Shown here piece after piece: positions 1 through 5,278 of a DNA stretch of 55,617 nt (position 1 is its first letter; the number at the start of each line of letters is the position of its first letter). The notes below the pieces were generated by a model. That model made no database searches. It saw only the letters and a list, made by a program, of their open reading frames with translations, and had not been told where the DNA came from. The position numbers and the translations under genes were made by a program. This DNA is from an uncultured Pseudomonadales bacterium (GTDB taxonomy: Bacteria > Patescibacteriota > Microgenomatia > UBA1400 > PJMF01): NCBI GenBank assembly GCA_964556485.1, contig CAZKVV010000004.1:1-55617 (forward strand), given 5' to 3'.

Positions 1-65
1 GGATAGTGTACGGTGCACGTGAGGCTCATAATCTCGCAGGCTAGGTTCGACTCCTCGTCCCGCAA
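1..65 (+). tRNA. tRNA-Met(CAT), probably initiator; about 4 nt of the 5' end missing at the window edge
   Basis: Cloverleaf: D-stem GTGT/GCAC (6-9/15-18), anticodon stem TGAGG/TCTCG with loop CTCATAA (CAT at 27-29), T-loop TTCGACT (46-52), 3' acceptor strand TCCCGCA plus discriminator A65. CCA is not encoded. Confidence 0.9.
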
Positions 66-69
66 CAAT

Positions 70-100
70 AAAAAAAAGACCTTTTGATGGGTCTTTTTTT
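70..100. terminator. Bidirectional intrinsic terminator after the tRNA
   Basis: AAAAAAAGACC / GGTCTTTTTTT inverted repeat. Confidence 0.8.
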
Positions 101-1017: not shown

Positions 1018-1070
1018 ATAGTTGTTGGTGGAAGAGTTCTAAAATTCCGTTCGCATTTAATCCCATAGTA

Positions 1071-1099
1071 TTTACTTTTTGCATAATTTGTGCTATAAT
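1071..1099 (+). promoter_or_regulatory. Sigma70-type promoter
   Basis: TTTACT-N17-TATAAT with extended TG. Confidence 0.7.
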
Positions 1100-1119
1100 A
1101 TAGGTCTGAGTTAGTCTAA

Positions 1120-1276
1120 TTTTTCACTTGCTGAGAATTCCAGGCCAACTTTGTTCTTTCACAAAATGGCAGTAACTAAAGGTCACAGCGAGGTTATTCT
1201 AATCGAGTAACTTGACTGTGGTCTTTGGCATATTGTCATGCCAAAAGTTGTTTATATTTTTTCGATCAATGAAAAA
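1120..1276 (+). ncRNA. Putative rod-like structured RNA (5' leader or 6S-like)
   Basis: Nested stems 1120-1130/1267-1276, 1146-1152/1244-1250, 1166-1174/1231-1239, 1176-1188/1216-1228 and 1191-1199/1205-1213, with many G-U pairs. Confidence 0.5.
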
Positions 1277-1293
1277 ATGAAAAGGAGAAAAAA

Positions 1294-1710
1294 ATGAGTA
1301 ACGTTGCGCTTGGACATGGTAAGTTGACGTTGTTCGACTCTTGGGGTTTGTTATCGGAAAAGGGGAGTTGGATTGTTGAGTCCCCCCTAACCGGATTTGC
1401 TTACGAGCAGAATCCGGCGCCCATCAAGAATAGAATAGAAAAAGTGATTCGACAAGATGCTGCTGCTGGGCGGGAGCATCTGATTTCATTTGTCGGGTTG
1501 TACCAGTTTGCAGGAATTCAACTGTGGCTTGAGGGCGTCATCACCCGCAAGCACGTTGAAAATTGCACCGAGGGGACAGACCCCCTTGGGGCATATGTAA
1601 TGTTTAAAAATGTTATGATCGGTGGAAAGCGGCGGACTATTAAAGTCTACCAAGACCCACCGAAGCAGTACGACTTCGCAACCTTCGACGTCAACTTTGA
1701 CGTTGTCTAA
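1294..1710 (+). CDS. Hypothetical protein (138 aa)
   Basis: SD AAGGAG at 1282-1287, own promoter and terminator; no recognised motif. Confidence 0.7.
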   Translation: MSNVALGHGKLTLFDSWGLLSEKGSWIVESPLTGFAYEQNPAPIKNRIEKVIRQDAAAGREHLISFVGLYQFAGIQLWLEGVITRKHVENCTEGTDPLGAYVMFKNVMIGGKRRTIKVYQDPPKQYDFATFDVNFDVV

Positions 1711-1747
1711 CCGCAAACTCGACACAAAAAAAACAACAAATCTTGGC

Positions 1748-1777
1748 AAAAAGCCTCCTGTAACGGGAGGCTTTTTT
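1748..1777. terminator. Bidirectional terminator between convergent genes
   Basis: AAAAAGCCTCCTG-TAA-CGGGAGGCTTTTT. Confidence 0.85.
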
Positions 1778-3262: not shown

Positions 3263-5014
3263 CTACTTGCCGATGACAATCGGCAGAAAAACATACGAAT
3301 TTTCTGCTTGAGTCACGGTCAGTGACACTGACATTTCAATAGTTGTCAGATAATCCTTGTGAGGAAGTATCTGGACAACAGCGTTGTTTGATCCCAAATT
3401 TGCTGCTCTGGGATCAAACTCCAATGCAGTGACTACACTTTGGCCAGCAGGAACATACATGACTGTTGAATTTACATTCAACCAGTTTGCTGCATCTTCT
3501 TCAAGATGCACATATGTACCGTATGTGCCAGAGTTTGTAATCGTCAAACCTATGCTCTTTGGTAGCTCGTCTTGAGCCATTGTTTCATCAAGGGACGTTG
3601 GGGATATTGATAACAGCGCCCCTCCAACAGTAAATGAGACTGGAATTTCGATGATCTCATTTTGAGGATCATTTGTAAATATTACTGTTGTGTCCTGGTG
3701 TATCCCTGGATAGAGGGCTTGGGCGTTTGCATCTAAGAAAAACCCCATGCTCGTCATCTGAGGAATTGTCAGGACTTCAACATTATTTCCTGCGTCCAAC
3801 CATTCTGGTAGAGAAAAACGGAAATATTTTTCAGTTTCTCCCCCAAAAATAAATTGGATAAATTCTGAATCACCTCCATTAATCTCTGCAAAGAATTGCA
3901 TTGGAGCTGTTGAGGTTGAGATAACAGCGCGGTTTGGTCCGCCTTTAAATATGCTGTTTTCTCCTCCTTCTCGACCCACAATGACATCAAGATCGCCATC
4001 GCTGTCAGCATCTACCGATGCTGTACTCGTTCCTGTTGCGATCAATTGATTTGGCCACCACAATGGGATGATTCCCGAAAAAAACCATGAGCCATTGGAG
4101 CCGATAAAATAAATATCGTCTCCAATCTCACCGTCTAAATTTGCCAACAAAACATCGTTGGCATCATAATTGAATGGCGGATCTACGTTTTTTGCGTAAA
4201 TGCCATTTTGATTCCGATACACTCTACTTATTAGCCCTGCAACTGCAACGTCAGTCAAGCCGTCTGCATTCAGATCGCCAATTGCGATGCGATTGCCACC
4301 CGATTGATTGAGAGATGGCTGGTTGTCATCGAATGTAAATGTTGCTGCGTTACCTAGATATACGCTGTCAGCAACAATGTCGCTGACAACAAATAGATCT
4401 AAGCTTGAGTCATCATCTACATTCAGAAGTTGGACATCATTGTATCCATCTTCCGAACCAAATTCGGTTGAGAGCACTAAGCTCCCGTCCGCATTTGACA
4501 TCCAAGCTTGAAGTTGTCCGTTCTTATTGGCAACTACTAAGTCGTTGCCATTTTGACCATCTATTTGGCCTGCTGATATGCCGGAGCAAATCTCGTTTTG
4601 ACTGCCAAAATTGTAGCCAAAGATAAATTGCTCTGTGCTAGTGCCAAACCAAATTTGATTGGCGGCAGTGGCATTACAGAAGGCGATATCGAGATAGCCG
4701 TCATTATTGATGTCGGCAATGTCTGCCTCTGAAGTTCCATCGCCAGCTCCTCCGTACGAACCTACGGAGTGAAAGATTCCTAATCTGCTTTCGACAAGAT
4801 ATACCTCACTTGTCGAATTGCTTCTGGTTTCGAGAACAAATTGTTCGTCTCCAATTTCAAAGGAAACCATGTCGGTCGTTTGACCACCATTGGTTCCAAA
4901 AGTATGTACAGATTCAAAAAACTGCACATACTCTTCTGGAGCTGCAGCTATGCTGGTAACTCCAAGAAAAAACGTAAATAATAAGATGAGCAAAAAAATA
5001 GATCGTATCTTCAT
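3263..5014 (-). CDS. Secreted FG-GAP/VCBS-repeat beta-propeller with two Ig/BACON-like domains (adhesin candidate)
   Basis: Signal peptide; six Ca-binding-type repeats (ADINNDGYLD, GQIDGQNGND, LNVDDDSSLD, GDLNADGLTD, ANLDGEIGDD, VDADSDGDLD); C-terminus YVFLPIVIGK. Confidence 0.8.
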   Translation of the reverse strand: MKIRSIFLLILLFTFFLGVTSIAAAPEEYVQFFESVHTFGTNGGQTTDMVSFEIGDEQFVLETRSNSTSEVYLVESRLGIFHSVGSYGGAGDGTSEADIADINNDGYLDIAFCNATAANQIWFGTSTEQFIFGYNFGSQNEICSGISAGQIDGQNGNDLVVANKNGQLQAWMSNADGSLVLSTEFGSEDGYNDVQLLNVDDDSSLDLFVVSDIVADSVYLGNAATFTFDDNQPSLNQSGGNRIAIGDLNADGLTDVAVAGLISRVYRNQNGIYAKNVDPPFNYDANDVLLANLDGEIGDDIYFIGSNGSWFFSGIIPLWWPNQLIATGTSTASVDADSDGDLDVIVGREGGENSIFKGGPNRAVISTSTAPMQFFAEINGGDSEFIQFIFGGETEKYFRFSLPEWLDAGNNVEVLTIPQMTSMGFFLDANAQALYPGIHQDTTVIFTNDPQNEIIEIPVSFTVGGALLSISPTSLDETMAQDELPKSIGLTITNSGTYGTYVHLEEDAANWLNVNSTVMYVPAGQSVVTALEFDPRAANLGSNNAVVQILPHKDYLTTIEMSVSLTVTQAENSYVFLPIVIGK

Positions 5015-5278
5015 TTCTCTCCTTTTCTTATGAAAATCTCACTTGTTAAAGAATTGGCATCACTACAAACAAATGTAGAATGCCGAATTTGTCTACACAT
5101 TTGTTATGTATAAACAACATTGATAGTATATCATTTAATCTCATAATATACAAAGTTTGCTGAATTTGATACATTTATAGGATATAATACAACTACAAGA
5201 GCTGTAGACAACTGTAATAATGTTGTAAAACAGTTATTCTTTAAAAAATAAACGTGAAGAAAAAGGAGAAACGGCCGC

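What the first reader, a model, noticed from the sequence alone, without database searches (positions are those of the whole stretch)
1071..1293. About 157-nt rod-like RNA behind a strong promoter: 6S-like RNA or switchable leader
Seen: a TTTACT-17-TATAAT promoter and a leader of about 188 nt folding into five nested stems. It has a closing stem (1120-1130/1267-1276), a 15/16-nt central bubble and a long apical stem with many G-U pairs that work only on the + strand. A perfect competing hairpin TTGGCAT/ATGCCAA (1225-1244) and a 14-codon uORF (1166-1210, MAVTKGHSEVILIE) are also present, and the structure ends 5 nt before the SD. Known: 6S RNAs are about 180-190 nt rods with a central bubble and can be co-transcribed with a downstream gene. 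Inference: an undescribed ncRNA or a translational switch.
Basis: partly seen in the sequence, partly recalled or inferred. Interest (0 to 1): 0.65.

Follow-up and report, generated by a model that had tools for sequence, protein, structure and literature searches.

The report
Conserved structured mRNA leader, not 6S
The stretch is a real, previously uncatalogued folded RNA leader that sits between a strong promoter and a small gene of unknown function in three ultra-small (Patescibacteria-type) bacteria and is kept more strictly than the gene itself, but it is a gene-attached control leader and not a 6S-like RNA.

Summary
The rod with closing stems and a central bubble is only one of several equal-energy folds, and relatives do not keep it. 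No Rfam family matches, 6S included.

A covariance model found two homologues (G249, L064). Both start right after a consensus promoter and precede a homologous ~140-aa gene with no fold match in the PDB or BFVD. The leader is 78-91% identical between genomes, against 57-72% for the coding sequence.

Conserved parts:
- hairpin P1
- an invariant box UUCACAAAAU (BoxA-like, 10/11 in the window)
- a 20-25-bp hairpin P2
- hairpin P3, whose extended form competes with P2

The AUG uORF is not conserved. A different 15-16-codon UUG ORF is weakly supported.

Best reading: a cis-acting leader controlling transcription elongation, termination or processing. The same layout recurs at other leaders in this genome. 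Support comes from three lineages with no double-sided covariation, and no transcript data could be obtained.

The parts
1061..1099 (+). Promoter. Lineage-typical upstream element TCCCATAGTATT abuts the -35 TTTACT (1071-1076). A 17-nt spacer follows, then TG (1091-1092) and the -10 TATAAT (1094-1099).
   Evidence: 10/12, TG. The same layout occurs in G249 (TTGACT-17-TATAAT, 11/12), in L064 (TTGACA-17-TATAAT, 12/12) and at other loci.
1105..1252 (+). Conserved core of the leader RNA. The inferred 5' end is about 1105, and the core runs to the conserved tail AAAAGUUGU.
   Evidence: Models R1 and R2 match full length in G249 (74 and 175 bits) and L064 (152 bits). Identity is 78-91%, against 57-72% for the CDS.
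1114..1145 (+). P1 hairpin. Outer helix GUCU/AGGC is 1114-1117 with 1142-1145. Inner helix is 1122-1126 with 1132-1136, with loop CUUGC.
   Evidence: All cells pair in four sequences. Two outer pairs change on one side only (G-C/G·U, U·G/C-G).
1128..1175 (+). Candidate 15-codon leader ORF, UUG to UAA (MLRIPGQLCSFTKWQ). It starts in the P1 loop and stops at the 5' base of P2.
   Evidence: G249 and L064 encode MLGIPGFLCTFTKCT(A/V). Several changes are synonymous. Permutation P is about 0.025 (W vs G249) and 0.08 (G249 vs L064). There is no SD. This part is tentative.
1153..1167 (+). BoxA-like box GUUCUUUCACA, lying within the invariant block UUCACAAAAU.
   Evidence: 10/11 to GYTCTTTAANA (PMC5725501); 8/11 in G249 and L064. 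It is invariant from UUCACAAAAU onward in all members. Related boxes sit in the rRNA leader and in other leaders.
1166..1240 (+). P2 long hairpin. The basal stem (1166-1174/1231-1239) is specific to the window. The lower stem (1176-1188/1216-1228) and apical stem (1191-1199/1205-1213) are conserved, with an invariant 2x2 internal loop CG/GA.
   Evidence: Across P2 including its basal extension (25 pairs), 93.9% of cells pair; seven pairs vary on one side only and none on both sides.
1166..1210 (+).
   Evidence: Present, but neither the peptide nor the length is conserved in the homologues.
1224..1262 (+). P3 hairpin: 1224-1231 pairs with 1238-1245 (core GGCAU/AUGCC), followed by the tail AAAAGUUGU and a U-rich run. 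It is terminator-like in the window.
   Evidence: The core is invariant in all members. The U-tract is weaker in G249 and L064 and is not flagged there.
1255..1279 (+). A/U hairpin (9 bp, -4 kcal/mol) in the non-conserved tail.
   Evidence: It is absent from G249 and L064.
1284..1710 (+). SD GGAG (1284-1287) and the 138-aa gene (1294-1710), a member of an uncharacterised family.
   Evidence: No match in Pfam, NCBIfam, PHROGs, PADLOC, PDB or BFVD.
1747..1777 (+). Canonical intrinsic terminator of the unit: AGCCUCC...GGGAGGCU followed by U6.
   Evidence: Read directly from the sequence. It is conserved in L009.

Best explanation
This is a cis-acting, structured 5' leader of an mRNA. It belongs to a small RNA family absent from Rfam 15; no published description was found in a limited search.

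A strong sigma-70-type promoter starts transcription at about 1105. The first ~150 nt fold into:
- P1, a hairpin
- a single-stranded invariant box (GUUCUUUCACAAAAU, BoxA-like)
- P2, a long hairpin of 20-31 bp rich in G·U pairs
- P3, a short hairpin

A variable tail with the SD of a ~140-aa gene follows.

Inferred mechanism: the leader controls whether RNA polymerase reaches the gene, and how long the message lasts.
- The box would load NusB/NusE-type elongation factors. These would carry polymerase through about 190 nt of leader ahead of the gene's start codon, which would otherwise be open to Rho.
- P2 sequesters the 5' arm (CUUU(A)GG) of the extended P3 hairpin, so it acts as an anti-terminator.
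- P2 is also long enough to be an RNase III site or a 5' stabiliser.

What is shown: the sequence features, conservation, strandedness, the competing pairings, and the presence of nusB, rho and rnc.
What is inferred: transcription itself, factor binding, termination and cleavage.

That it is a gene-attached leader and not a 6S-type RNA is about 85% likely. The specific BoxA-plus-antiterminator mechanism is about 35% likely.
For: - Three independent members all begin within a few nt of a consensus promoter and precede homologous genes in unrelated genomic contexts.
- The leader is 78-91% identical, against 57-72% for the CDS and about 51% for the flanks. Within the species there is 1 change in the leader against 15 in the CDS.
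- P2 is strongly strand-specific: z -8.1 against -2.9.
- 95.6% of cells pair across the members. The nine further pair types all arise from one-sided, wobble-compatible changes.
- The P2 base and the extended P3 are mutually exclusive in all three members.
- The box matches GYTCTTTAANA at 10/11 positions in the window.
- The layout promoter, small hairpin, C(U/A)UUAACAA box, long hairpin, short hairpin, SD recurs at C8:34458, C8:35213, C7:27401 and C8:7339. The box also occurs in this genome's rRNA leader.
- That box is enriched about 3-fold in intergenic DNA: 10/36 copies against 8.6% non-coding.
- nusB, rho and rnc are all present.
Against: - There are only three lineages. No pair changes on both sides, so statistical covariation is absent.
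- The box carries C where all the enriched copies and the E. coli consensus carry A. This C variant is not enriched in intergenic DNA (6/52).
- G249 and L064 match the consensus at only 8/11 positions.
- The P3 core (5 bp) can coexist with most of P2. P3 is flagged as terminator-like only in the window.
- The same nucleotides could instead be constrained by a small ORF.
- There are no transcript data.
Confidence: 0.4

Rival explanations
1. Leader-peptide (trp-type, ribosome-sensing) attenuator. A 15-16-codon ORF (UUG 1128 to UAA 1175) is translated. A ribosome that reaches its stop codon at the foot of P2 melts the lower stem of P2. This frees CUGUGGUCUUUGG to form the extended P3 terminator. 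Without translation, or with stalling, P2 forms and polymerase reads through.
For: - The frame is open in all three members, and the peptides are similar: MLRIPGQLCSFTKWQ against MLGIPGFLCTFTKCT(A/V).
- Several changes are synonymous: GGC/GGU, CUU/CUG, UGU/UGC, AUU/AUA.
- Permutation P is about 0.025 and 0.08 in this frame and not significant in the other two.
- The stop codon lies at or inside the 5' foot of P2 in every member. With the 5' side blocked through stop+13, the extended P3 forms in the window and G249; in L064 only the 5-bp core P3 forms.
- Starts without an SD appear common in this genome.
Against: - The ORF has no SD and a UUG start inside a hairpin loop.
- There is no run of regulatory codons.
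- P is about 0.07 after correcting for three frames.
- Two further apparently synonymous changes lie upstream of any possible start, so the pattern can arise by chance.
- The U-tract is poor in G249 and L064.
- The same nucleotides are covered by P1 pairing and by the box.
Confidence: 0.2
2. A plain stability and processing leader. P2 is an RNase III substrate or a 5'-proximal protective hairpin that sets mRNA half-life, as in the pnp and rnc leaders. There is no elongation-factor box and no switch.
For: - P2 is a 20-31-bp duplex.
- rnc is present.
- Long hairpins of unrelated sequence occur in the leaders of distant homologues L020 and L066 and in other leaders of this genome.
Against: A stabilising hairpin does not explain three things: the invariant single-stranded blocks (UUCACAAAAU and GCCAAAAGUUGU), the near-invariant 3' arm, and a leader more conserved than its CDS.
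Confidence: 0.15
3. A ligand- or protein-sensing leader. It would be either a new riboswitch or an autoregulatory site bound by the ~140-aa product. Binding would shift the P2/P3 balance or SD access.
For: - The leader is strictly linked to one gene family.
- Unpaired nucleotides and an internal loop (CG/GA) are conserved.
- The leader is more conserved than the CDS.
Against: - There is no multi-helix junction typical of aptamers.
- P2 is a long, regular helix.
- The protein has no recognisable RNA-binding fold or marked charge.
- Members of the family with 42% identity or less lack the leader.
Confidence: 0.12
4. An independent small RNA, 6S-like or another trans-acting kind. It would end at P3 and be co-transcribed with the gene only by read-through.
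For: - The promoter is strong.
- P3 plus its U-run in the window would give a species of about 150 nt.
- A rod-like fold is possible.
- No 6S gene is detectable elsewhere in the genome.
Against: - No 6S model hit at E up to 10.
- The closing stems are not conserved, and there is no conserved central bubble.
- The RNA is found in only 2 of the roughly 290 representative genomes of its order that were searched, always with the same rare gene. A housekeeping RNA would not show this pattern.
- The U-tract is poor in the other members.
Confidence: 0.05

Closest known systems
BoxA-containing mRNA leaders controlled by the Nus factor complex (E. coli and Salmonella suhB 5' UTR; rrn leader boxB-boxA-boxC; Baniulyte et al. 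2017, PMC5725501)
   Same: - A box matching GYTCTTTAANA at 10/11 positions in the window.
- The box lies in a 5' leader shortly after the promoter, behind a hairpin and ahead of a long helix.
- The same genome carries a related box in its rRNA leader and in several mRNA leaders.
- nusB and rho are present.
   Different: - The box carries C at the position that is A in the consensus and in all enriched copies here.
- The other two members match at only 8/11.
- The box lies about 130 nt from the start codon.
- Binding of NusB/NusE is untested.
Leader-peptide transcription attenuators (trp, his and pheA type)
   Same: - A short ORF in the leader.
- Its stop codon sits at the foot of a hairpin that competes with a downstream terminator-like hairpin.
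   Different: - No SD, and a UUG start.
- No tandem regulatory codons.
- The controlled gene is not biosynthetic.
- The terminator U-tract is weak in two of the three members.
RNase III-processed autoregulatory leaders (pnp and rnc 5' UTR hairpins)
   Same: - A long (at least 20 bp), slightly imperfect hairpin in a 5' UTR.
- RNase III is encoded in the genome.
   Different: - The single-stranded blocks are conserved as well.
- The downstream gene is not a ribonuclease.
- Cleavage has not been shown.
6S RNA (Rfam RF00013)
   Same: - Similar length: about 150-190 nt behind a strong promoter.
- It can be drawn as a rod.
- 6S can be co-transcribed with a downstream gene.
   Different: - No model match.
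- No conserved closing stem or central bubble.
- A sporadic distribution tied to one rare gene.

Membership tests
6S RNA (RF00013) | Match to the Rfam covariance model | tested here: not met
   There is no hit at the gathering score in the window. There is none at E up to 10 in 900-1500 or in the whole genome, and none at E up to 1 in the homologous loci.
6S RNA (RF00013) | Conserved rod: 5' and 3' ends form a closing stem around a large central bubble | tested here: not met
   The rod is the minimum-energy fold only for the cut 1120-1276, with 8/8 and 13/4 loops. The closing helices are marked non-canonical in G249 and are absent from the consensus fold.
6S RNA (RF00013) | Discrete stable RNA that binds sigma-70 holoenzyme and templates pRNAs | not testable with these tools
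   No RNA run holds the sequence.
BoxA / Nus-factor leader | Box matching the BoxA consensus (GYTCTTTAANA) and the organism's own rRNA-leader box | tested here: inconclusive
   The window matches 10/11 and G249 and L064 match 8/11. The organism's own rRNA leader carries CAUUAACAAG. The variant found here (CUUUCACAA) is not enriched in intergenic DNA, at 6/52, whereas C[UA]UUAACAA is, at 10/36.
BoxA / Nus-factor leader | Position in a transcribed leader close behind a promoter, with the Nus machinery encoded | tested here: met
   The box lies about 50 nt after the inferred start in all three members. The same layout occurs at four other leaders. NusB and Rho are present.
BoxA / Nus-factor leader | NusB/NusE binding and an effect on termination | not testable with these tools
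   This needs binding and reporter assays.
Leader-peptide attenuator | Conserved, translatable short ORF in the leader | tested here: inconclusive
   The frame is open in all three members, with similar peptides. P is about 0.025 and 0.08. There is no SD and the start is UUG, though many genes in this genome lack a detectable SD.
Leader-peptide attenuator | Mutually exclusive anti-terminator and terminator hairpins placed so that ribosome position decides between them | tested here: inconclusive
   The geometry fits in all three members. The terminator is flagged only in the window. The P3 core can coexist with most of P2.
Leader-peptide attenuator | Run of regulatory codons | tested here: not met
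   No amino acid is repeated in tandem in any of the three peptides.
RNase III-processed leader | Duplex of about two helical turns, with RNase III encoded | tested here: met
   P2 has 20 conserved bp, extended to 25 bp in G249 and L064 and 31 bp in the window. rnc lies at C1:185778-186050.
RNase III-processed leader | Cleavage within the hairpin | not testable with these tools
   No transcript end data are available.
Riboswitch (any Rfam class) | Match to a known aptamer model | tested here: not met
   Only chance-level hits appear, the best being preQ1-II at 17.7 bits against a gathering score of 47. The homologues give none.

The most novel reading that the evidence does not exclude
The leader is a new kind of sensing RNA specific to Patescibacteria. 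One form would be a ribosome-sensing attenuator whose SD-less UUG start codon is displayed in a hairpin loop. The other would be a ligand- or protein-binding switch dedicated to a family of ~140-aa proteins with a previously unseen fold. Either would make it one of the first gene-specific RNA switches defined in these uncultured ultra-small bacteria.
Probability: 0.25. Interest if true: 0.6.

Novelty: new member of a known kind. Interest (0 to 1): 0.4.

Why it matters
Almost nothing is known experimentally about gene control in Patescibacteria.

This is a compact cassette of promoter, leader, gene and terminator. Its RNA leader is under stronger purifying selection than its protein. Its layout (hairpin, BoxA-like box, long hairpin, short hairpin) recurs at other genes and resembles the rRNA leader of the same genome. 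If the box does recruit Nus factors, rRNA-type antitermination signals would be a general expression device for accessory genes in these reduced genomes.

The cassette is small enough (about 700 bp) to test in a surrogate laboratory host.

The controlled protein family was modelled with high confidence and has no fold match in the PDB or BFVD, so it is a further target in its own right.

Tried and rejected
**DNA search of 41 relatives with 1060-1300.** Only promoter-like pieces matched.

**Protein searches for the 138-aa and 303-aa neighbours.**
- Neither has a relative in the family or order genomes.
- The word-index search gave one 94% hit.
- The genome-contig scan with the protein found nothing.
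- An alignment of 30 relatives was too diverse for the search for related loci.
- The metagenome scan gave one distant locus without the leader.
- The viral scans found nothing.

**Strain variants from DNA runs.** All were identical apart from one SNP upstream of the promoter.

**Covariance models.**
- R1 and R2 on eight loci of distant protein homologues gave no leader.
- R2 over the order (286 genomes) and a class sample (401 genomes) found only G000 and G249. One marginal hit lay inside a large gene and is a false positive.
- A degenerate 19-mer scan of 185,579 species genomes returned only the G249 contig as a true hit.

**Readings rejected.**
- 6S RNA, for the reasons given in the membership test.
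- The window's closing helix CAACUUU/AAAGUUG, which is not conserved.
- A DNA palindrome or mobile repeat: the hairpin needs G·U pairs, works on one strand only and has no other copy in the genome.
- A specific operator in the promoter: the upstream element is shared by unrelated promoters.
- A phage or defence origin for the gene.

Full report
**1. What is in the sequence**

The window is the first 55.6 kb of contig C4 of a 1.09-Mb genome with 40.5% G+C. Earlier notes call it Patescibacteria-type.

Between a species-specific 303-aa gene (106-1017) and a 138-aa gene (1294-1710) lies a 276-nt spacer. It holds:
- A promoter, TTTACT-17-TATAAT, with a TG extended -10 at 1071-1099 (10/12).
- A leader of about 188 nt that folds better than shuffled controls: -50.8 kcal/mol, z -3.26 on the + strand, against z -2.36 on the - strand.

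The robust feature is one hairpin at 1166-1240. It has 31 bp with 7 G·U pairs. On the + strand it gives -33.9 kcal/mol and z -8.1; its reverse complement gives -15.2 kcal/mol and z -2.9. It therefore works as + strand RNA and not as a DNA palindrome. It ranks 14th among 172 non-coding hairpin loci in the genome.

The 8-bp hairpin 1224-1245 overlaps the 3' arm of the long hairpin. It is followed by a U-rich tail and is flagged as terminator-like. The 14-codon AUG uORF at 1166-1210 exists.

The five-stem rod is the minimum-energy fold only if the RNA is cut at 1120-1276. In that fold the loops are 8/8 and 13/4. For the full leader, a three-domain fold has the same energy.

**2. Known families**

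No Rfam family reaches its threshold anywhere in the window. At E up to 10, only chance-level hits appear in 900-1500. The 6S model finds nothing in the whole genome.

**3. Relatives**

Plain DNA and protein searches first suggested an orphan:
- Only promoter-like pieces matched in 41 relatives.
- The gene was absent from 200 genomes of the order.
- One 94%-identical protein turned up on a 1.4-kb contig of the same species.

On that contig the leader differs at one base (A1232C). This base lies in the P3 loop and breaks one basal P2 pair. The CDS differs at 15 bases, giving 8 amino-acid changes.

A full HMMER scan showed that the protein does have a family: 58 representatives, mostly about 140 aa.

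A covariance model of the leader (R1) then found a full-length match of 74 bits in G249, another genus of the same family. It lies directly after TTGACT-17-TATAAT and before a gene 53% identical to the window's.

Searching with that protein led to P0063 and a third member on a 588-kb metagenome contig, L064. It scores 152 bits with the second model R2 and sits behind a perfect TTGACA-17-TATAAT.

No further members were found:
- in the 286 genomes of the order or in 401 of the class
- in 185,579 species genomes by a degenerate 19-mer
- in viral contigs
- upstream of eight more distant protein homologues

The three cassettes lie in unrelated gene neighbourhoods.

**4. Conservation**

| Region | W vs G249 | W vs L064 | G249 vs L064 |
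|---|---|---|---|
| Leader core | 78% | 79% | 91% |
| CDS | 58% | 57% | 72% |
| Flanks further out (upstream / downstream) | 51% / 51% | 51% / 51% | 45% / 68% |

Conservation begins a few nucleotides after the -10 box and ends at AAAAGUUGU. The tail down to the SD is variable. The RNA is therefore under stronger constraint than the protein it precedes.

**5. Consensus anatomy**

- P1, a hairpin with an outer and an inner helix.
- A linker ending in the invariant UUCACAAAAU.
- P2, with 20 conserved bp, an invariant 2x2 internal loop (CG/GA) and a variable apical loop.
- P3, with core GGCAU/AUGCC.
- The tail AAAAGUUGU.

On the four-sequence alignment, 95.6% of cells pair. There are nine further pair types, all from one-sided changes (G·U to G-C or A-U). 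No pair changes on both sides, and L064 has two broken cells. The structure is therefore supported by energy, strand asymmetry and wobble-compatible substitutions. Statistical covariation is absent, because three lineages are too few.

The window's closing helices are not kept. This removes the rod.

P2 extends at its base in every member, using different sequences, and always covers GG(CA) of P3. Full P2 is favoured over P2 core plus P3 by 2.7-6.6 kcal/mol. The 5-bp P3 core can coexist with most of P2. Only the extended P3, CUUU(A)GGCAU/AUGCC(A)AAAG followed by UUGUYU, competes with lower P2. That extended hairpin is terminator-like in the window, but its U-tract is weak in the other two members.

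**6. ORFs in the leader**

The peptide is unrelated in G249, and in L064 the frame runs on into the gene.

In another frame, a UUG in the P1 loop opens a 15-16-codon ORF that stops at the foot of P2 in all three members:
- window: MLRIPGQLCSFTKWQ
- G249 and L064: MLGIPGFLCTFTKCT(A/V)

It shows synonymous third-position changes. A permutation test gives P of about 0.025 (window vs G249) and 0.08 (G249 vs L064) in this frame, and nothing in the other two.

Points against it:
- The ORF has no SD. SD-less starts do seem common here.
- Two further apparently synonymous changes lie upstream of any possible start, so chance remains a real option.

**7. The box**

GUUCUUUCACA (1153-1163) matches the gamma-proteobacterial BoxA consensus GYTCTTTAANA at 10 of 11 positions (PMC5725501). 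G249 and L064 match at 8 of 11.

Earlier notes of this scan prompted me to test this. The results:
- The genome's rRNA leader carries CAUUAACAAG.
- C[UA]UUAACAA is enriched about 3-fold in intergenic DNA: 10/36 copies, and 5/8 with a trailing G, against 8.6% non-coding.
- At C8:34458, C8:35213, C7:27401 and C8:7339 the box lies behind a promoter and a small hairpin and just before a long hairpin, a short hairpin and an SD. This is the same layout as the leader studied here.
- However, the variant here has C where the others have A, and that variant is not enriched (6/52).
- nusB, rho and rnc are all encoded.

**8. The gene**

The family has no match in Pfam, NCBIfam, PHROGs or PADLOC. The AlphaFold model is very confident (pLDDT 95.7), but it has no significant fold match in the PDB or BFVD and no PDB sequence relative. 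It gives no clue to a ligand.

**9. Verdict**

It is a gene-attached, cis-acting leader; the 6S reading fails every testable criterion.

The mechanism I rank first is a BoxA-type elongation signal combined with a P2 anti-terminator and processing hairpin (about 35%). A leader-peptide attenuator follows at about 20%. Next come a plain RNase III or stability hairpin (about 15%) and a ligand or protein switch (about 12%). An independent sRNA is unlikely (about 5%).

No transcript evidence could be obtained.

Noticed in passing
window 1445-1620, with the 3' UTR 1711-1735: Compared with a same-species contig (L009), the 138-aa gene carries 15 clustered differences giving 8 amino-acid changes, plus indels in its 3' UTR. 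The 490 nt upstream have one change and the 470 nt downstream have none. This looks like local diversifying selection or a recombination patch in the gene.
   Followed up: partly
window 1294-1710: The 138-aa protein belongs to an uncharacterised family of about 140-aa proteins with 58 representatives. The model is confident (pLDDT 95.7). There is no match in the PDB, BFVD, Pfam, NCBIfam, PHROGs or PADLOC. Distant members sit between hisS and tig. NUDIX genes are nearby in three contexts.
   Followed up: partly
window 5043-5051 (- strand), upstream of the FG-GAP gene 3263-5014; also G000 C6:72687, C8:34458, C8:35213, C7:27401 and C8:7339: The motif C(T/A)TTAACAA(G) occurs in the rRNA leader and, behind promoters and small hairpins, in several mRNA leaders. 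It is enriched about 3-fold in intergenic DNA. It is probably this lineage's BoxA, used widely on mRNAs.
   Followed up: partly
window 1061-1076; L007 1501-1541; L002; L012 822-838; L064 2744-2760; L066 140-156: The element TCC(C/T)ATA(A/G)TATT directly abuts the -35 hexamer at unrelated promoters in several genera. It looks like a lineage-typical promoter extension and not a gene-specific operator.
   Followed up: partly
L020 724-795; L066 about 243-297: Distant homologues of the gene have unrelated long leader hairpins (26 bp, and about 24 bp with G·U pairs) between promoter and SD. A long 5' hairpin may therefore be a recurrent feature of this gene family even where the sequence has diverged.
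   Followed up: no
window 1-100: The contig starts inside the 3' part of a tRNA-like gene, followed by a strong bidirectional terminator at 71-100. ARAGORN and Rfam do not call it because it is truncated.
   Followed up: no
G000 C1:185778-186726: nusB and rnc (RNase III) lie within about 500 bp of each other on the same strand.
   Followed up: no
L049 (= G249 contig C84, CAZBTU010000084.1): The public record is titled 'uncultured Pseudomonadales bacterium'. Yet the genome groups in the same family as this 1.1-Mb Patescibacteria-type genome, so the label is probably wrong.
   Followed up: no
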